Assembly: GCA_965372275.1 (NCBI GenBank)
Contig: CBDVBS010000001.1
Span: 1 to 25,165 of the forward strand
Reading direction: 5' to 3'
Source: an uncultured bacterium
Lineage (GTDB): Bacteria; JAJVIF01; JAPKYR01; CAZSPL01
DNA length: 25,165 nt
A program made the position numbers and the translations under genes. Numbering within the stretch: the stretch's first letter is position 1; each line of letters opens with the position of its first letter. Below the pieces are notes generated by a model, which saw only the letters and a program-made list of their open reading frames with translations, was not told the origin of the DNA and made no database searches. Of the stretch, positions 9,877-17,156 are shown piece by piece.

Positions 9877-12285
9877 ATGGCACGATATGGCTTCGCTTTC
9901 ATTCTTATCCTCGCGATGGCCTTGTGTGTTTCCTGCTCCGGAAGTGATGGAAATTACTTCACATCGCCCGACGATCACCGGGAATCGGTCGCCGGGCAGG
10001 GGGGAACCATGGTGTGCCTTGGTTCCTGGAATGTGATTGCTTCGAAGGATATCGGTATCCTTGAAGCAACCCCGTTGCGCGGCAGCGACAACATACTGAA
10101 TGTGCTGAGCTTTCTCGAACCACCGGCGCTTACAGGGATGAGTATCGATTTCGACACACTTTTCATCGATTTCGATAACGGCGAATTGAGCGTGGATGTG
10201 ATCCTCACACATCCTCTCAACGATCCGGTGTTCATGGGATTCGATGTACGCGGTGTAGTGTTCGGCCCGAAGGTTGTGAATTCCGATGGTTATACGCCCG
10301 TTATGGCACCGGAGAATTTCGCGGGGGAACCATTTGGATATATTGACGGGATGCTTGGTTCGCCATACAGCTTCGCCGGATATGACGAAGGGATATATGG
10401 CTACAGGTATTTCTGCGACAGCCTGAGCGCTAACGATGATTTACCGGAATTCTTCACGGAAGCCGGTAATCTCGCCAACCGCGGTGTTTTCTCGAACGGT
10501 GAGAAACGACGTCGGTATTACCATCTCGACTGGGAAGGCACCGACTATAACATCCTGGTTTTCAATTATGCCATTTATGCCAATTTCAACTGGCCCGTGG
10601 GAGATCCGCCGATAACGATTGATGATTTCCCAATCAATTCCGCTAACAGCCGGGAAGCGTTCTGTGCTGAAATAACCGAGACGGTTAACGGCCTTTATTA
10701 CGAAGCCGGGATCGGCGGCGGCACGATCAGTTTGGATGTTGAGGTGTGGGACTGGCTGAATGATATCGTGTCTGTCTCGATGAGATCGCTGGAACCGGGA
10801 GTGATTGCCGAAACTCCCGGCACTTACGACGGCCCGGGTTCCACCGCCTATTCGAGCATGTATTCATTCTCGAATGTTCCGGCTGTCCCGACGTCACCGG
10901 GAGACCTCGATATTGTAATAACCGTCACCGACCCGGTAACATTCGGCGAAGCATGGTTCCTTGATTTGCTGAGCACAACTCATCCGATGTATGACGTGCA
11001 GCTTTACAACTGCTTCATTCACACCGCCAATGTGGCCGAATGCCCTCCGCCAATTGTGACCGGGATCGATCCCGATGCAGGCTGGGCCGGTCAGATTGTT
11101 GATGCAACCGTCACCGGGACATTTATCGACGGCCCATCCCTTGGCGTGAGGCTTTCGATGACGGGTGAGGATGATATCTACGGAACGGATGTCGTAATGG
11201 TTGGCGATGATATCGAATGCACATTTAACCTTGACGGAGCGGCGGACGGTGACTGGACCGTGGTGGTGACCAACGGATGCGGGTCTGAGGGGTACCTGGC
11301 CGACGGCTTTTCTGTTGGAAGCTGTGAGGGGCATAACGAGTGCCCGTCGGGTTCGCACAGCGTTGCGAATCATTTTCAGAATTTCATTCATTACCCCAAC
11401 AGAGGCACTACCGCAACAAGGAATTCAGACACGCAATACTTGATCTGCACAGGATTTAAAAATACAATCGAGCACAGAATAATTGCGTATATTCCCGGGG
11501 AGACCACTTTCTCATTCCTTTCGGCAATAATGGGGCCTTATACAAGCGCCGGCGAACTTCCGAGTTGCATGGCGGCTGATTCCAATGACCGCATCTATTA
11601 CCGTGCCGGTGATGAAGCCGGCCGCCTGCAGTATATCGATTTTGACGGCACCACCGGTTTCGGGCCGATAGATCAGGAGTTCGGATGGCCCGTCCCGTGG
11701 GGTAGCATACGGCGCGTGGCGATTGATAACGATGATTATCCGCATGTGCTGTGCTACAGTGGCACAACGTTCAGAATTTACCCGTGGGACGGCACTGACT
11801 GGGGGACATATATCAGCGTCCCGACTCAGATTATGAGCGAGAATGGAAATGACTATAGAAATATAAACGACTTCGATCTCAACCCCATTACTGGTGATTA
11901 CATCATCACCACCTACTACAATCCGCCGAAATTCTATGCCATTAACACGAGCGGGGTTATCGTGTTCTCGGATGATGATATCTGGGAGGCCGGTATAACT
12001 GAAGCCATGTATGCGGGGATATATATCGACAGGGACAATCCCGGATGCCGGTTCATTCTGAGTGGTACACCGTATATTGCAGGGACTGAACCGAATTACG
12101 GTGAGGCATACTTCGCTCGATGCAATCCCCTGTATGGTGAGTGGACATATTCCACACTGCCTGAAGGCGATTACCCGTTTGAGGATGGTCTTGGTTCTGT
12201 TGTAAATGTTGACGGCACTTACTACTTTTGCGGGACGACATCCTATCGCTGGCATTCGGCTTACATCGAAGTCCCGGAGTGGTAA
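9877..12285 (+). CDS. Large lipoprotein: uncharacterised N-terminal domain, IPT/TIG-like domain, probable beta-propeller C-terminus
   Basis: Lipobox LCVSC; N-terminal similarity to 1..776; PPPIVTGIDPDAG...VTGT...WTVVVTN TIG-like segment; GGAGG RBS. Confidence 0.8.
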   Translation: MARYGFAFILILAMALCVSCSGSDGNYFTSPDDHRESVAGQGGTMVCLGSWNVIASKDIGILEATPLRGSDNILNVLSFLEPPALTGMSIDFDTLFIDFDNGELSVDVILTHPLNDPVFMGFDVRGVVFGPKVVNSDGYTPVMAPENFAGEPFGYIDGMLGSPYSFAGYDEGIYGYRYFCDSLSANDDLPEFFTEAGNLANRGVFSNGEKRRRYYHLDWEGTDYNILVFNYAIYANFNWPVGDPPITIDDFPINSANSREAFCAEITETVNGLYYEAGIGGGTISLDVEVWDWLNDIVSVSMRSLEPGVIAETPGTYDGPGSTAYSSMYSFSNVPAVPTSPGDLDIVITVTDPVTFGEAWFLDLLSTTHPMYDVQLYNCFIHTANVAECPPPIVTGIDPDAGWAGQIVDATVTGTFIDGPSLGVRLSMTGEDDIYGTDVVMVGDDIECTFNLDGAADGDWTVVVTNGCGSEGYLADGFSVGSCEGHNECPSGSHSVANHFQNFIHYPNRGTTATRNSDTQYLICTGFKNTIEHRIIAYIPGETTFSFLSAIMGPYTSAGELPSCMAADSNDRIYYRAGDEAGRLQYIDFDGTTGFGPIDQEFGWPVPWGSIRRVAIDNDDYPHVLCYSGTTFRIYPWDGTDWGTYISVPTQIMSENGNDYRNINDFDLNPITGDYIITTYYNPPKFYAINTSGVIVFSDDDIWEAGITEAMYAGIYIDRDNPGCRFILSGTPYIAGTEPNYGEAYFARCNPLYGEWTYSTLPEGDYPFEDGLGSVVNVDGTYYFCGTTSYRWHSAYIEVPEW

Positions 12286-14462: not shown

Positions 14463-15623
14463 CTATTTCCCCCACAAGCCCCCGCGTTTGATGTTATTGC
14501 CACCTTCATCCGAAGATGGGACAATCACTACTGCATTTGGGACCTGACGCGATGGGGACGGCACGCTTACGCCGTCTATCCACATTCCCGATGACCCGCC
14601 GCCGTCAAGGCCGATTGCCTCGCGTACGTTGAGGTCGATCAGAAGATCGCCAAGCTGGGTGAATGTGAGCCCCGTGCCGCGCGTGGTCACGAAAAGCAGT
14701 TCATTGTTCCATGTAAGACAAAGGCAGGAACGGTTGGTTGCGGCGAGTACGTTCGATGAGAATCTGTACTCATCGGAGAAATCGCGGGCCCATCCTTCCT
14801 CGATAAACATCGGACCGCCGGTGAGCATATGTTTCACCGACTCCTTCTCGCCATGGAAATCATAGATCATCCCAACGTCGAGGCCATCAATGAAGCGCTC
14901 AGCGGCTTTCTGCCATACACCACGGAATGCAATGACGAAGCCGTTTTCGGGGATACCGGTTTCCCCTGATGAACTTCGTCCCACGACCAGACCGTTATCG
15001 ATCTGGATCTCCGTCGAGTCGGCTGCCGGAGTCAACTCACCCCAGAAACGGTTGTAGATATGGACGGCATCCTTCATTCCGCCGGGAGGTATATTCATCG
15101 CATGTATCGGGATCGGTTCGTAATAGTCTGACGGATCAAGGAATGCATCGATCGTGAGAACATCGAGCATGACCTCGCCATCCCCGTCAACGATGAAGCA
15201 TCCCCGGTTGAAATCGGAGTGGGAGAGCAGATCCCCATTGATAATGAGTTCGCCGACGGGGAGTTTTCGGCCGTATTGATCGAAGAAAAACCCGCCGTTG
15301 ATTGCAGCGATGGCGCATTCCGATGTGGCGATATCGGCAAGATTGGCGGAACTTTTTATTCTTCCGCCTTCGAGCGCGGGGCGTACTTCGATGCTTTCAT
15401 CGTCGAGCCTGATTTTCACCACGTACAGCTCGACACCCGCGCCGGAAGGGAGGGTACGGTGGTAGTGGATGTAACGTACTGATGGGTCGATGAGGATTTT
15501 TTCATCGACTATTCCTTCCCTCGTGGACAGGGACGATGCCGGATTCTGAATAAGGAGAAAGGAGATCAGTAAAATGAAAGAGAATATATATTTGGTGTAC
15601 TTCATATTTTCGCTATACCGCAC
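14463..15623 (-). CDS. Secreted phosphodiester glycosidase (NAGPA/DUF2233) family protein
   Basis: AAINGGFF, GGPM, AIGLDGGGSS, RQVPNAVVI motifs; signal peptide. The true start may be the MKYTK methionine a few codons downstream. Confidence 0.85.
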   Translation of the reverse strand: MRYSENMKYTKYIFSFILLISFLLIQNPASSLSTREGIVDEKILIDPSVRYIHYHRTLPSGAGVELYVVKIRLDDESIEVRPALEGGRIKSSANLADIATSECAIAAINGGFFFDQYGRKLPVGELIINGDLLSHSDFNRGCFIVDGDGEVMLDVLTIDAFLDPSDYYEPIPIHAMNIPPGGMKDAVHIYNRFWGELTPAADSTEIQIDNGLVVGRSSSGETGIPENGFVIAFRGVWQKAAERFIDGLDVGMIYDFHGEKESVKHMLTGGPMFIEEGWARDFSDEYRFSSNVLAATNRSCLCLTWNNELLFVTTRGTGLTFTQLGDLLIDLNVREAIGLDGGGSSGMWIDGVSVPSPSRQVPNAVVIVPSSDEGGNNIKRGGLWGK

Positions 15624-16613
15624 TTACCTCAAGAACCCGATCACCTCTTCGAGTTCATCGTAGTTGATGACGCGGTTCGCTCCGAGGTAAGTATCGGGTG
15701 GCGCCGGATGCACATCAAGTATCAATCCGTCCGCGCCTGCAGCGTATGCGGCAAGACTCTGGCGTATGACCTCGATCGATGACGATGCCACCGCCGATGG
15801 GTAGGCCAGCACCGGGAACGGACTTGATTCCTTCATGGCAATTAACGCTCGAATGTCAAGGGTTGCGCCGCCGGGGGACAGGGCGCTCCGGCTTCCGGCT
15901 TCGATGAGGGCGATCTTCGCGAGGCCGTCGGCGGCAAGCATCTCGGCTGCGTCGAGGAATTCACCGACGGTGTAACGCTGGTCGCGTATGATGAACACCG
16001 GCCTGGATGACTTGGCGAGTTTTTCGCGAAGCACCTGGTCGCCGGTGTCGGCGGTGTCGATGATAAGCGCGTCGGAGGCATCTAATAATTCCACCATGTG
16101 GTCACGGCTCAGAAGGGGGGCAAGATGGGGCATAAGAAATTTATCATGCAATTGGCCGTTGATTTTGAGTGCGCGTTCTATGGAGACATCCCATTGAAGT
16201 TTATGGTCCGGCCTGTAGCCGGAACCCTTGAATGCGCTGACGCCCATGCGGGAGAGGTCGTTCAGGATCGAAACAGCGTTTTGGTAAGTATCGAGGTAGG
16301 GTGGTCCGGCAATGAGTGCCGGTTTCTGTTTCGTGCCGATTTTCAGATCACCGATCTTGATGTAGCTCTCGACAATTTCGTCGGTGGCGGGATGCGGCTT
16401 CGGTTCGAATTGCACTTCGGTGACCGCTGGAAGGTGCGCGATACGCCGCCCGAATTCCCATCGTTTGTCATAGGAGCCGGACTTGATGATGAGAAGGCTT
16501 ATATCCCCTTCGCTCAGAAGCTCGTAGGTGAATTTCTCGGCAATGCAGCGCTGGGGGACATCGCTGATGTCATCGAGTGTTGCATTTTTGCTGAAGATGA
16601 TAAGCATCTGCAC
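15624..16613 (-). CDS. DAH7P synthase (type I-beta, AroF-like) homologue with N-terminal regulatory-domain-like region; catalytic residues degenerate
   Basis: Scaffold motifs IKIGDLKIG...LIAGP, G...FKGSGYRP, SRPVFIIR, A.A.GADGLILDVHP.P are recognisable, but the metal and substrate ligands are replaced. Confidence 0.75.
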   Translation of the reverse strand: MQMLIIFSKNATLDDISDVPQRCIAEKFTYELLSEGDISLLIIKSGSYDKRWEFGRRIAHLPAVTEVQFEPKPHPATDEIVESYIKIGDLKIGTKQKPALIAGPPYLDTYQNAVSILNDLSRMGVSAFKGSGYRPDHKLQWDVSIERALKINGQLHDKFLMPHLAPLLSRDHMVELLDASDALIIDTADTGDQVLREKLAKSSRPVFIIRDQRYTVGEFLDAAEMLAADGLAKIALIEAGSRSALSPGGATLDIRALIAMKESSPFPVLAYPSAVASSSIEVIRQSLAAYAAGADGLILDVHPAPPDTYLGANRVINYDELEEVIGFLR

Positions 16614-16700
16614 ACCTTTTTATTTGGTGGGGCTATTTTAACCTATTAATTGGGGGGATGGTAATCCGCGTTCGGGATTCGTCTTTCACCATCTCCTGTC

Positions 16701-16868
16701 CGGGTGGCACCCTTCTGTCTTCAGAAGGGTGGTTGCACAAAACCCCCAACAGACAAACAGCTAATCATCAGGATAGCAGCTACTCGGGTGGCACCCTTCT
16801 GTCTTCAGAAGGGTGGTTGCGCAAACCCCCCAACAGACAAACAGCTAATCATCAGGATAGCAGCTACT
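16701..16868 (+). repeat. 84-bp tandem duplication, each unit starting with a family I REP hairpin
   Basis: 16701-16784 and 16785-16868 differ at 2 positions; stem CACCCTTCTG-TCTT-CAGAAGGGTG. Confidence 0.92.
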
Positions 16869-16918
16869 TTCCGAAGACGGAAAGATAGCAGCTACCTTCA
16901 CTGCGAGTGATTGATGGA

Positions 16919-16960
16919 GACCACCCTTTTGTTCGAAGACTCCAAAAGGGTGCCACCCGG
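16919..16960 (-). repeat. Family I REP palindrome, inverted relative to 16701 and 16785
   Basis: The minus strand reads CCGGGTGG-CACCCTTTTG-GAGTCTTCGAA-CAAAAGGGTG. Confidence 0.85.
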
Positions 16961-17039
16961 AATGTGGACGGTTTTTTACATGGCGGGTTGAAAACAGCCG
17001 GGTTTAAAGTCGTGTCATATGCTATAAGAATTGAGATTT

Positions 17040-17135
17040 ATTTCCCGGCATCAGAATGCCGGGTTACATGAAATTTCCCGGCATCGGAATGCCGGGTTAC
17101 ATGAAATTTCCCGGCATCAGAATGCCGGGTTACAT
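17040..17135 (-). repeat. Three tandem 33-bp units of a family II REP-like hairpin
   Basis: ATTTCCCGGCATC(A/G)GAATGCCGGGTTACATGAA x3 (third unit truncated); the minus strand reads GTAA-CCCGGCAT-TC(T/C)G-ATGCCGGG. Confidence 0.92.
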
Positions 17136-17156
17136 TAGTAAAGACCCTATTTGGAT

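What the first reader, a model, noticed from the sequence alone, without database searches (positions are those of the whole stretch)
15624..16613. DAH7P-synthase pseudoenzyme: intact ORF with essentially every catalytic motif replaced
Seen, compared with canonical type I-beta motifs (Thermotoga maritima metal ligands C102/H272/E298/D309, KPRT 131-134): AGPC becomes AGPP, KPRT becomes RPDH, IGARN becomes IDTAD, LLKRG becomes FIIRD, CERG becomes IEAG, DPSH becomes YPSA and IEVH becomes LDVH. The SDG Asp is not evident. The ORF is still full length and keeps the N-terminal ferredoxin/ACT-like regulatory region. Inference: it is retained for a non-catalytic role, such as an aromatic amino acid sensor, a regulatory subunit of an active DAH7PS, or a scaffold, or it has a new chemistry.
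Basis: partly seen in the sequence, partly recalled or inferred. Interest (0 to 1): 0.65.

Follow-up and report, generated by a model that had tools for sequence, protein, structure and literature searches.

The report
Conserved dead DAHP-synthase paralogue
An uncultured marine-sediment Planctomycetota lineage keeps, beside its working enzyme, a well-folded second copy of the first shikimate-pathway enzyme that has lost every metal- and substrate-binding residue. Selection preserves this copy as strongly as the working one, so it must do a different, still unknown job.

Summary
The true start is the ATG at 16607, not the GTG at 16613. A ferredoxin-like (FL) domain and a TIM barrel are confidently predicted (pLDDT 88.8).

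Of 14 catalytic or ligand-binding positions, 3 are kept. All four metal ligands are replaced (P103, A272, D298, G309). So are the PEP-phosphate and E4P-phosphate residues.

It is not decay:
- Eight orthologues (71-95% identity) have no indels and dN/dS of 0.06-0.18, like the genome's canonical DAH7PS and hisC.
- A 26-32%-identical sister group sits in the neighbouring family.
- All 11 genomes of the order carry this paralogue plus a canonical DAH7PS. None of 3 sister-order genomes carries it.
- Among 1.84 billion protein representatives, only two clusters belong to the family.

New context: the order has the shikimate trunk and MqnA, but no detectable chorismate mutase, prephenate dehydratase or dehydrogenase, TrpE-family enzyme or TrpA. 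Chorismate therefore probably feeds menaquinone, which weakens a simple Phe/Tyr feedback-sensor reading.

Best reading (about 0.5): a non-catalytic ligand-binding or oligomerising regulatory paralogue. The main rival (about 0.3) is new chemistry.

The scan has flagged dead DAH7PS barrels on other DNA, mostly fusions and one stand-alone, but not this family.

The parts
15624..16607 (-). Gene for the 327-aa catalytically degenerate type I-beta DAH7PS paralogue (stop codon at 15624-15626)
   Evidence: ORF and translation. PF00793 and PRK08673 matches far below the equivalog cut-offs. Eight 327-aa orthologues. dN/dS of 0.06-0.18.
16404..16607 (-). N-terminal ferredoxin-like (ACT-like) domain, residues 1-68
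   Evidence: The AF2 model has a beta-alpha-beta-beta-alpha-beta fold (E2-5, H11-23, E28-33, E36-41, H46-56, E62-66) with pLDDT 86-92. It aligns to the FL domain of T. maritima DAH7PS. It has the lowest dN/dS of the protein, 0.095. Family-specific invariant residues are F5, L11, T18, Y28, E33, S37, K48, E51 and H58.
16326..16403 (-). Linker and barrel-capping beta-hairpin, residues 69-94
   Evidence: AF2 strands 82-85 and 88-91. This is the least constrained part, with dN/dS about 0.30.
15627..16325 (-). (beta/alpha)8 barrel, residues 95-327, with the former active site replaced
   Evidence: Replacements: P103 (Cys), K127 (Arg), R132/D134/H135 (KPRT), D184-T185-A186-D187 (GARN), I207 (Lys), A237 (Arg), Y269/A272 (DPSH), D298 (Glu), G309 (Asp). 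Barrel TM-score to 1ZCO/1VS1 is 0.82-0.86. dN/dS is 0.12.
16613..16618 (-). Shine-Dalgarno-like AAGGTG, 5 nt upstream of the ATG at 16607
   Evidence: Read directly from the sequence.
16635..16664 (-). Sigma-70-like promoter candidate (TTACCA, 18 nt, TAAAAT)
   Evidence: Consensus scan. The number of sites in the region is not above the shuffle expectation, so this is weak.
17157..18383 (-). Upstream hisC-family aminotransferase, a conserved neighbour within the window's own family (f1)
   Evidence: PF00155 and TIGR01141 at 276.3 bits. It is the only hisC-level hit in the genome. The same order, aminotransferase then DAH7PS-like gene, is seen in L004, L005, L006 and L031.
14463..15605 (-). Downstream NAGPA-family (phosphodiester glycosidase) gene with an N-terminal hydrophobic segment, 18 nt after the stop
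   Evidence: PF09992. The start was read. The same neighbour is seen in L004, L006 and L030.
18528..19007 (+). Divergently transcribed Rrf2-family regulator
   Evidence: PF02082. The same arrangement is seen in L004 and L006.

Best explanation
The gene encodes a pseudoenzyme, a paralogue of the lineage's own FL-domain type I-beta DAH7PS. It probably arose by duplication at the base of this Planctomycetota order. It kept the fold (FL domain, capping hairpin, TIM barrel and the tetramer-interface Ile). It lost all four metal ligands and the basic residues that hold the PEP and E4P phosphates, so it cannot make DAH7P or KDO8P. These steps are shown: homology, the residue losses, the confident fold, order-wide retention under purifying selection, and co-occurrence with an intact DAH7PS. 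This step is inferred: it now works without catalysis. It would bind a small molecule through the strongly constrained FL domain and/or the remodelled pocket. That pocket is less basic and still carries K127, R132, R208, E236, Y269, S271, D298 and H300. It would pass on that signal through oligomerisation, most plausibly by co-assembling with or acting on the active DAH7PS. The pathway controlled would be a shikimate pathway that here appears to feed futalosine-type menaquinone synthesis and not aromatic amino acids.
For: Residue losses: (3 of 14 key positions kept). Their roles are taken from PMC6362186, which also states that all reported DAHPSs are metalloenzymes. PMC8408635 says the reaction depends on a divalent metal ion. 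Fold: AF2 pLDDT 88.8 and pTM 0.82; best PDB matches are FL-bearing DAH7PS 4GRS, 1VR6 and 1RZM. Selection: dN/dS 0.06-0.18, with the closest pair at dN 0.024 and dS 0.333, and no indels. The rate equals that of canonical DAH7PS and hisC between the same two genomes: 71% versus 74% and 70% identity. The FL domain is the most constrained part (0.095). In canonical enzymes the barrel is far more conserved than the FL domain (58% versus 32%), but between the two subfamilies they are equal (31% versus 28%), as expected if catalytic constraint was lost while other constraints stayed. Distribution: 11 of 11 genomes of the order carry it plus a canonical copy, and 0 of 3 sister-order genomes do. Only two 50%-identity clusters among 1.84 billion representatives belong to it. 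Origin: the f1+f2 clade has 98 support, and a tree joining it to the order's own canonical DAH7PS is not rejected and has the higher likelihood (p-AU 0.65). The P. furiosus interface residue I181 (4C1L is named an interface mutant) corresponds to I252, which is conserved.
Against: There is no direct evidence for any ligand, any oligomer or any partner. The gene is not next to the canonical DAH7PS or to other aro or mqn genes. Neighbours differ between the two subfamilies: hisC and NAGPA in f1, and a multi-pass membrane protein in f2. Eight polar residues on the former catalytic face are conserved across very deep divergence, which fits a working active site as well as it fits a binding pocket. 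The lineage lacks detectable Phe, Tyr and Trp branches, so the classical effectors of FL domains have no obvious feedback logic here.
Confidence: 0.5

Rival explanations
1. Neofunctionalised enzyme: the barrel has a new active site built from K127, R132, R208, E236, Y269, S271, D298 and H300, plus subfamily-specific His, Asp and Arg residues. It would catalyse a different, metal-independent or differently metallated reaction on a non-phosphorylated carboxylate substrate.
For: Eight polar residues at the C-terminal ends of the barrel strands are invariant across both subfamilies, although the barrels are only about 31% identical. Barrel dN/dS is 0.12, as low as for real enzymes. The two basic residues that hold the PEP carboxylate are conservatively kept as a swapped pair, Arg to K127 and Lys to R132.
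Against: Four of the eight (R208, E236, S271, H300) are also invariant in canonical and in other degenerate homologues, so they may be structural. Many pocket positions differ between f1 and f2: D134/H135 versus T/E-D, I207 versus E, D209 versus H, A272/P272 versus R. That is unusual for one conserved chemistry. No PF00793 member with another chemistry is known to me, and no gene neighbourhood points to a substrate.
Confidence: 0.3
2. It is still a DAH7P or KDO8P synthase that uses an unorthodox, metal-free mechanism.
For: Only the family membership (PF00793). Metal-independent KDO8PS enzymes exist (established knowledge).
Against: Metal-independent KDO8PS changes only Cys to Asn and keeps the His, Glu/Asp and Asp ligands and all PEP-binding residues. 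Here the PEP-phosphate residues (Arg of GARN, Lys of KRG, Arg of CERG) and the E4P-phosphate residues (Arg and Thr of KPRT) are all gone, some replaced by acids. Scores are 123 versus a cut-off of 335 for DAH7PS and 24.8 versus 242 for KDO8PS. The genome already has canonical copies of both enzymes.
Confidence: 0.03
3. It is a decaying pseudogene or an annotation or assembly artefact.
For: Extreme divergence from the family, with long tree branches.
Against: The 327-codon frame is intact in 8 independent metagenomic orthologues and in 10 more distant ones, without indels. dN/dS is about 0.1. The fold prediction is confident. Contigs of close relatives occur in RNA libraries, with differences mostly at third codon positions (weak evidence, since DNA carry-over is not excluded).
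Confidence: 0.02
4. It is a non-catalytic partner of something other than DAH7PS. One candidate is the adjacent HisC aminotransferase. Others are the envelope proteins encoded downstream (NAGPA in f1, a multi-pass membrane protein in f2). In this reading the fold is reused as a scaffold unrelated to shikimate metabolism.
For: Conserved hisC, DAH7PS-like, NAGPA order in f1, with an 18-nt gap to NAGPA in the window. Conserved DAH7PS-like then membrane-protein pair in f2.
Against: The neighbours are not shared between f1 and f2, and the f2 membrane protein was not found in f1 genomes with this query. Intergenic gaps of 100-540 nt separate hisC from the gene, and in the window they are filled with REP-like repeats.
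Confidence: 0.12

Closest known systems
Thermotoga maritima DAH7PS (type I-beta with N-terminal ferredoxin-like/ACT-like domain; PDB 1RZM, 1VR6, 3PG9; chimera 4GRS)
   Same: Same two-domain architecture and length. It is the best sequence and structure match: phmmer E about 1e-24 over the full length and Foldseek TM 0.76-0.79. The barrel-core residues, the AAGADG helix/strand motif and the interface Ile are kept.
   Different: About 25% identity. All four metal ligands and the PEP/E4P phosphate-binding residues are replaced. PF18152 no longer recognises the FL domain. NCBIfam scores are about one third of the cut-off.
Shewanella oneidensis AroQ-PheA fused to an aroA(I-beta) 'pseudogene' (Song, Bonner, Wolinsky, Jensen 2005, PMC1173090), and similar metagenomic CM- or P-protein-fused degenerate barrels (P0112, P0120, P0129)
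   Same: A type I-beta DAH7PS barrel that has lost catalytic residues but persists as an open frame.
   Different: Those are C-terminal domains fused to chorismate mutase or prephenate dehydratase. This one is a free-standing protein with its own FL domain. Its lineage has no detectable CM or PDT. It is far more diverged: PF00793 scores 52-64 bits versus 166-194.
Catalytically dead paralogues that regulate their active paralogue ('prozymes'), e.g. trypanosomatid deoxyhypusine synthase (PMC3663545)
   Same: A dead paralogue kept by selection beside an active paralogue from an oligomeric enzyme family. This is an analogy for how it may work (one search lists the paper; its mechanism is as stated in its abstract).
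   Different: No hetero-oligomer has been shown here. The enzyme family and domain of life are different.
Non-covalent DAH7PS-chorismate mutase complexes (M. tuberculosis, C. glutamicum) and CM-linked DAH7PS (Geobacillus, Prevotella), PMC8408635
   Same: These show that DAH7PS barrels and their add-on domains act as allosteric partners of other proteins and pair diagonally across a tetramer.
   Different: In those systems the DAH7PS is catalytically active and the partner is CM. No CM was found in this order.

Membership tests
Type I-beta DAH7PS (EC 2.5.1.54), as a working enzyme | Homology to the DAHP_synth_1 (beta/alpha)8 barrel | tested here: met
   PF00793 at 63.7 bits, cut-off 25.5. Foldseek top hits are all DAH7PS or KDO8PS.
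Type I-beta DAH7PS (EC 2.5.1.54), as a working enzyme | Four divalent-metal ligands (Cys of AGPC, His of DPSH, Glu of EVH, Asp of SDG) | tested here: not met
   They are P103, A272, D298 and G309. The ligand set is as listed in PMC6362186.
Type I-beta DAH7PS (EC 2.5.1.54), as a working enzyme | PEP-binding residues (Arg of LRGG, Lys of KPRT, Ala/Ser-Arg of GARN, Lys of KRG, Arg of CERG) | tested here: not met
   They are K127, R132, T185-A186, I207 and A237. Only the two carboxylate-side basic residues survive, as conservative swaps.
Type I-beta DAH7PS (EC 2.5.1.54), as a working enzyme | E4P phosphate site (Arg and Thr of KPRT) | tested here: not met
   They are D134 and H135 (H, Y or F among the orthologues).
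Type I-beta DAH7PS (EC 2.5.1.54), as a working enzyme | Score above NCBIfam curated cut-offs (PRK08673, TIGR01361) | tested here: not met
   123.1 versus 335, and 104.9 versus 267.75.
Type I-beta DAH7PS (EC 2.5.1.54), as a working enzyme | PEP + E4P condensation activity | not testable with these tools
   Needs an enzyme assay.
FL-domain (T. maritima-type) subclass of I-beta DAH7PS | N-terminal ferredoxin-like regulatory domain joined to the barrel by a linker and capping hairpin | tested here: met
   AF2 secondary structure and pLDDT. Full-length alignment to 1RZM, 1VR6 and 4GRS. The Pfam PF18152 HMM itself gives no hit.
KDO8P synthase | Score above the NF003543 and TIGR01362 cut-offs, and the KDO8PS PEP/A5P residues | tested here: not met
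   24.8 versus 242, and 16.2 versus 314. A canonical KDO8PS lies elsewhere in the genome (L002).
Pseudoenzyme (dead paralogue retained by selection) | Clear homology to an enzyme family with loss of essential catalytic residues | tested here: met
Pseudoenzyme (dead paralogue retained by selection) | Purifying selection and phylogenetic retention | tested here: met
   dN/dS 0.06-0.18. The rate is comparable to canonical DAH7PS and hisC. 11 of 11 genomes of the order carry it.
Pseudoenzyme (dead paralogue retained by selection) | Experimental absence of the ancestral activity | not testable with these tools
   Needs purified protein.
Prozyme-type regulatory subunit of the active paralogue | Physical hetero-oligomer with, and kinetic effect on, the canonical DAH7PS | not testable with these tools
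   Only co-occurrence in 11 of 11 genomes and retention of the interface Ile. No multimer prediction tool was available.

The most novel reading that the evidence does not exclude
The dead barrel has become a sensor for an enolpyruvyl-carboxylate metabolite that carries no phosphate, such as chorismate or the MqnA product 3-enolpyruvyl-benzoate. It would use the retained carboxylate-binding pair K127/R132 in a pocket stripped of its phosphate and metal sites. By co-assembling with the active FL-DAH7PS it would give end-product control to a shikimate pathway that in this order serves only futalosine-type menaquinone synthesis. That would be a bacterial 'prozyme' that rewires feedback after the loss of aromatic amino-acid biosynthesis.
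Probability: 0.12. Interest if true: 0.8.

Novelty: new variant of a known kind. Interest (0 to 1): 0.58.

Why it matters
DAH7PS is a textbook system for how allostery is bolted onto a conserved catalytic barrel. Here the regulatory hardware (FL domain, oligomer interface) is kept under strong selection while the chemistry is deleted. That would show what the allosteric scaffold can do on its own. It would also add a bacterial, metabolic example to the mostly eukaryotic list of regulatory pseudoenzymes.

There is a practical point too. Some source databases name these proteins 3-deoxy-7-phosphoheptulonate synthase. This inflates pathway reconstructions.

The metabolic context is also new. The order has the shikimate trunk plus MqnA but no detectable Phe, Tyr or Trp branches. 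This makes the lineage a good place to ask how shikimate flux is controlled when its only product is a quinone.

Tried and rejected
- Rfam scan of 15400-18700 for a leader or riboswitch: only two sub-threshold chance hits.
- Shared partner gene between the two subfamilies: the f2 downstream membrane protein is unrelated to the f1 NAGPA protein. It was not found in f1 genomes.
- Literature search for a described DAH7PS pseudoenzyme: no paper holds 'DAH7PS' together with 'pseudoenzyme', and other term combinations gave nothing relevant. Only the 2005 remark on Shewanella was found.
- ESM Atlas: returns only ordinary DAH7PS and KDO8PS clusters, with no structural search possible.
- Chorismate-mutase partner idea, taken from fused dead barrels and the Mtb complex: weakened because no AroQ or AroH CM was found in 10 of 11 genomes of the order.
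- Expression evidence: no RNA run holds the window's own DNA. Three RNA-library runs hold short contigs of relatives. This cannot be distinguished from DNA carry-over.
- Papers PMC3060475 and PMC3610045 (Tyr-binding residues of the T. maritima FL domain) are not held. No residue-level comparison of the effector site was therefore made.
- Model coordinates are not readable in the script box, so pocket geometry and interface mapping could not be computed.
Full report
**What is at the coordinates**

The minus strand of 15624-16613 carries one uninterrupted frame. The ORF listing starts it at the GTG at 16613. That GTG lies inside an AAGGTG Shine-Dalgarno-like sequence (16618-16613), five bases upstream of an ATG at 16607. 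All eight close orthologues begin at the corresponding Met and are 327 aa long. The gene is therefore 15624-16607(-), 327 codons plus a stop. Residue numbers below use this 327-aa numbering.

**Checking the observation**

- Pfam assigns the protein to DAHP_synth_1 at 63.7 bits over residues 89-323.
- NCBIfam PRK08673 aligns it end to end (3-325 to 1-323 of 338) but scores only 123 bits against a cut-off of 335. TIGR01361 scores 105 against 268. The KDO8PS models score 25 against 242 and 16 against 314.
- phmmer against the PDB finds FL-domain DAH7PS over the full length: 4GRS, and 1VR6/1RZM of Thermotoga maritima. It finds barrel-only enzymes (1ZCO, 1VS1) over residues 83-324, all at E about 1e-21 to 1e-24 and about 25% identity.
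The Asp of SDG aligns to G309.
- I scored 14 positions in 244 family members against the genome's own canonical enzyme. Their roles as metal ligands, PEP contacts and E4P contacts are summarised in PMC6362186.
- The canonical signature is CKRTRKRERDHEHD and the window protein reads PRDHAIREAYADHG. Three of 14 are kept: the Arg of KRG, the Glu of CERG and the His of EVH.
- By contrast, 201 of the 244 keep at least 13.

**Fold**

I predicted the structure with an alignment of 55 homologues.

- AlphaFold2 gives mean pLDDT 88.8 and pTM 0.82.
- The model has a beta-alpha-beta-beta-alpha-beta N-terminal domain (residues 2-66), a beta-hairpin (82-91) and eight beta/alpha units.
- Foldseek against the PDB returns the FL-bearing DAH7PS structures first (TM 0.76-0.79 over the whole chain). 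The barrel-only enzymes follow, with target-normalised TM of 0.82-0.86.
- The Pfam model of the FL domain (PF18152) does not recognise the N-terminus. It does recognise other, less diverged homologues.

**Not decay**

- The 5.8-billion-protein search returns eight orthologues at 71-95% identity, all 327 aa. It then drops straight to canonical DAH7PS at 26-28%.
- I fetched the DNA for seven of them.
- Nei-Gojobori dN/dS is 0.06-0.18 for all 28 pairs. The closest pair has dN 0.024 and dS 0.333. There are no indels.
- Between the window's genome (G000) and the other genome of its family (G001), the paralogue is 71% identical with omega 0.175. The canonical DAH7PS is 74% identical (0.128) and hisC is 70% identical (0.131).
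- By domain, omega is 0.095 for the FL domain, 0.30 for the linker and hairpin, and 0.12 for the barrel.
- Short contigs of relatives from three RNA-library runs lie on the gene at about 85-94% identity, differing mostly at third codon positions. This fits purifying selection. It is only weak evidence of transcription.

**Distribution and origin**

- Record titles name the organisms as uncultured Planctomycetota MAGs. The runs that hold the DNA are marine-sediment, cold-seep and marine metagenomes.
- The neighbouring family of the same order (f2) carries a 26-32%-identical counterpart in 9 of 9 genomes.
- The f2 counterpart is also degenerate, partly in a different way: AGSP, YRP(T/G/M), ERH in place of KRG, ETGR in place of CERG, Y(P/A)SR in place of DPSH, and DVH.
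- f1 and f2 share three indels relative to canonical sequences and a set of family-specific invariant residues. These are F5, L11, T18, Y28, E33, S37, K48, E51 and H58 in the FL domain. In the barrel they are P96, L105, K127, Y131, R132, L137, R145, P263, Y269 and D298.
- f1 and f2 form a clade with 98% SH-aLRT support, on very long branches.
- Every genome examined also has a canonical DAH7PS with all motifs. G000 also has a canonical metal-type KDO8PS.
- A profile of the family finds it in 11 of 11 genomes of the order at over 500 bits. One of these is truncated at a contig end. The three other genomes of the class give only canonical-level matches of 110-131 bits.
- Against 1.84 billion 50%-identity representatives, two clusters score above 500 bits and the next scores 174. 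The family is therefore confined to this order as far as public data show.
- A tree constrained to unite the family with the order's own canonical DAH7PS has a higher likelihood than the free quick-search tree and is not rejected (p-AU 0.65). The simplest origin is an in-lineage duplication followed by fast divergence. Long-branch effects mean this is not proven.

**What remains of the active site**

- Lost are all four metal ligands, the three PEP-phosphate residues (Arg of GARN to A186, Lys of KRG to I207, Arg of CERG to A237) and the E4P-phosphate pair (Arg and Thr of KPRT to D134 and H135).
- New acidic residues appear in f1: D134, D184, D187 and D209.
- Counting the charges at the 14 positions, the net charge goes from +2 plus a divalent metal to about -1 with no metal. 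A site that bound two phosphate esters is no longer suited to anions.
- Conserved across both subfamilies are K127 and R132 (a swapped version of the Arg/Lys pair that holds the PEP carboxylate), R208, E236, Y269, S271, D298 and H300.
- Four of these (R208, E236, S271, H300) are also kept in canonical enzymes and in unrelated degenerate homologues, so they may be structural.
- Ile252 matches P. furiosus I181. That residue's mutant structure, 4C1L, is titled an interface mutant. Ile252 and the neighbouring invariant Asp251 are retained, which is consistent with a preserved oligomer interface.
- In canonical sequences the barrel is much more conserved than the FL domain (58% versus 32% mean pairwise identity). 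Between f1 and f2 the two are equal (31% versus 28%). The extra constraint that catalysis puts on the barrel has gone, while the FL domain keeps its usual share.

**Genomic context**

- In f1 the order is Rrf2 regulator (divergent), then hisC-family aminotransferase, then the DAH7PS-like gene, then NAGPA-family protein. This order recurs on independent contigs, with a HEAT-repeat gene inserted in one.
- The aminotransferase is the genome's only hisC-level match. HisC-type aminotransferases are classic members of aromatic supraoperons as broad-specificity aromatic aminotransferases (PMC1173090).
- The hisC to paralogue spacer is 100-540 nt. In the window it is filled by REP-like hairpin repeats.
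- In f2 the upstream genes vary: a 3-hydroxyacyl-CoA dehydrogenase or a response regulator. The conserved downstream gene is an unrelated membrane protein of about 281 aa, which was not found in f1 genomes.
- No conserved partner gene spans the whole family. No aro or mqn gene lies in the window.

**Metabolic context (new)**

- AroQ chorismate mutase (PF01817), prephenate dehydratase (PF00800) and prephenate dehydrogenase (PF02153) are each found in only 1 of the 11 genomes of the order.
- That one genome is G007, and all three genes lie on a single contig that also carries an extra DAH7PS. AroH CM is found in 0 of 11.
- In the five most complete genomes (86-99%), chorismate-binding enzymes of the TrpE/PabB/MenF type and TrpA are found in 0 of 5.
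- In the same five, chorismate synthase, dehydroquinate synthase and MqnA/MqnD-family proteins are found in 5 of 5.
- Every control genome gave a match for PDT, PDH, the chorismate-binding family and TrpA, and 13 of 14 did for AroQ CM.
- Allowing for MAG incompleteness, the consistent picture is a shikimate trunk that feeds futalosine-type menaquinone synthesis, with aromatic amino-acid branches not found. The three sister-order genomes also lack PDT, and two of them keep a chorismate-binding enzyme.
- This undercuts a plain Phe/Tyr feedback-sensor role. It raises the question of what controls DAH7PS in such a cell.

**Relation to other dead DAH7PS barrels**

- Among the top 150 profile hits there are other degenerate I-beta barrels. 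P0112 is fused to chorismate mutase. P0120 and P0129 are fused to a P-protein or prephenate dehydratase. P0155, P0156, P0195, P0206 and P0048/P0050 are free-standing with an FL domain.
- On the quick tree they need at least four origins (low confidence).
- The only published mention I found is the 'bizarre' aroA(I-beta) pseudogene fused to aroQ-pheA in Shewanella oneidensis (PMC1173090).
- Earlier notes of this scan describe CM-fused and P-protein-fused dead barrels, and one free-standing case heading a trp operon in other genomes.
- The window's family is the most diverged of all: PF00793 scores 52-64 bits against 125-194 for the others.

**Interpretation**

Shown:
- It is a paralogue of FL-type I-beta DAH7PS.
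- It has lost the residues needed for metal, PEP-phosphate and E4P binding.
- It is confidently predicted to fold like the enzyme.
- It is kept by purifying selection in every sampled genome of one order, beside an intact DAH7PS.

Inferred, at about 0.5: it acts non-catalytically. It would bind a ligand through the FL domain and/or the remodelled pocket and act through oligomerisation, most plausibly on the active DAH7PS. Dead-paralogue regulators such as trypanosomatid DHS (PMC3663545) and DAH7PS-partner complexes (PMC8408635) are functional analogies.

The main rival, at about 0.3, is a new chemistry in the conserved polar cluster. Residual DAH7PS or KDO8PS activity, and simple decay, are each very unlikely.

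**Verdict**

The general interpretation (a retained pseudoenzyme or a new function) is supported. The specific function is open. This is a new, order-specific, free-standing variant of a barely described phenomenon: degenerate DAH7PS barrels. It sits in an unusual metabolic setting. Interest is moderate to high for enzymologists and students of pseudoenzymes.

Noticed in passing
window:16701-16868 and 17040-17138: The hisC to DAH7PS-like spacer holds two tandem 84-nt units, each with a CACCCTTCTG...CAGAAGGGTG hairpin. It also holds three tandem 33-nt units, each with a CCCGGCAT...ATGCCGGG hairpin, directly after the hisC stop. These are REP- or MITE-like extragenic repeats with no Rfam family. 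RNA-library contigs of run X17 end inside them.
   Followed up: partly
G000-G010 (whole genomes of the order): No AroQ or AroH chorismate mutase, prephenate dehydratase, prephenate dehydrogenase, TrpE/PabB/MenF-family enzyme or TrpA was found. Chorismate synthase, DHQ synthase and MqnA/MqnD are present. The order looks auxotrophic for Phe, Tyr and Trp and seems to run the shikimate pathway for menaquinone only.
   Followed up: partly
G007:C177:17655-20438 (L048, L050, L051): One contig of one f2 genome carries a CM-PDT gene, a prephenate dehydrogenase and an additional DAH7PS side by side. These are the only such genes in the order. It is either a horizontally acquired aromatic island or a mis-binned contig.
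   Followed up: no
P0048, P0050 (metagenomic proteins; P0050 on a 435-kb contig): An FL-DAH7PS variant that keeps most PEP-binding residues (the Arg of CERG is Cys) but changes the metal site: Cys to Pro, Glu to Asp and Asp to His, with the DPSH His kept. It nests beside a canonical sequence on the tree. It may be an active enzyme with an altered metal centre and not a dead one.
   Followed up: no
L022:7027-7875, L024:7069-7914, L046, L047: In the sister family the DAH7PS-like gene is always followed by a multi-pass membrane protein of about 281 aa with no Pfam family (33% identity between genera). It was not found in the window's family.
   Followed up: partly
window:14463-15605: A NAGPA-family phosphodiester glycosidase with an N-terminal hydrophobic segment starts 18 nt after the stop of the DAH7PS-like gene. 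It is probably co-transcribed in this genome. The spacer is 235-360 nt in relatives.
   Followed up: partly
window:17157-17290 (C-terminus of the hisC-family protein): The aminotransferase carries a Pro/Glu/Thr-rich tail of about 40 aa beyond the end of the hisC model. Its total length varies among relatives (383, 408 and 440 aa).
   Followed up: no
window:18977-21229 and 9877-12285: Large ORFs of 750 aa and 802 aa with no Pfam match.
   Followed up: no
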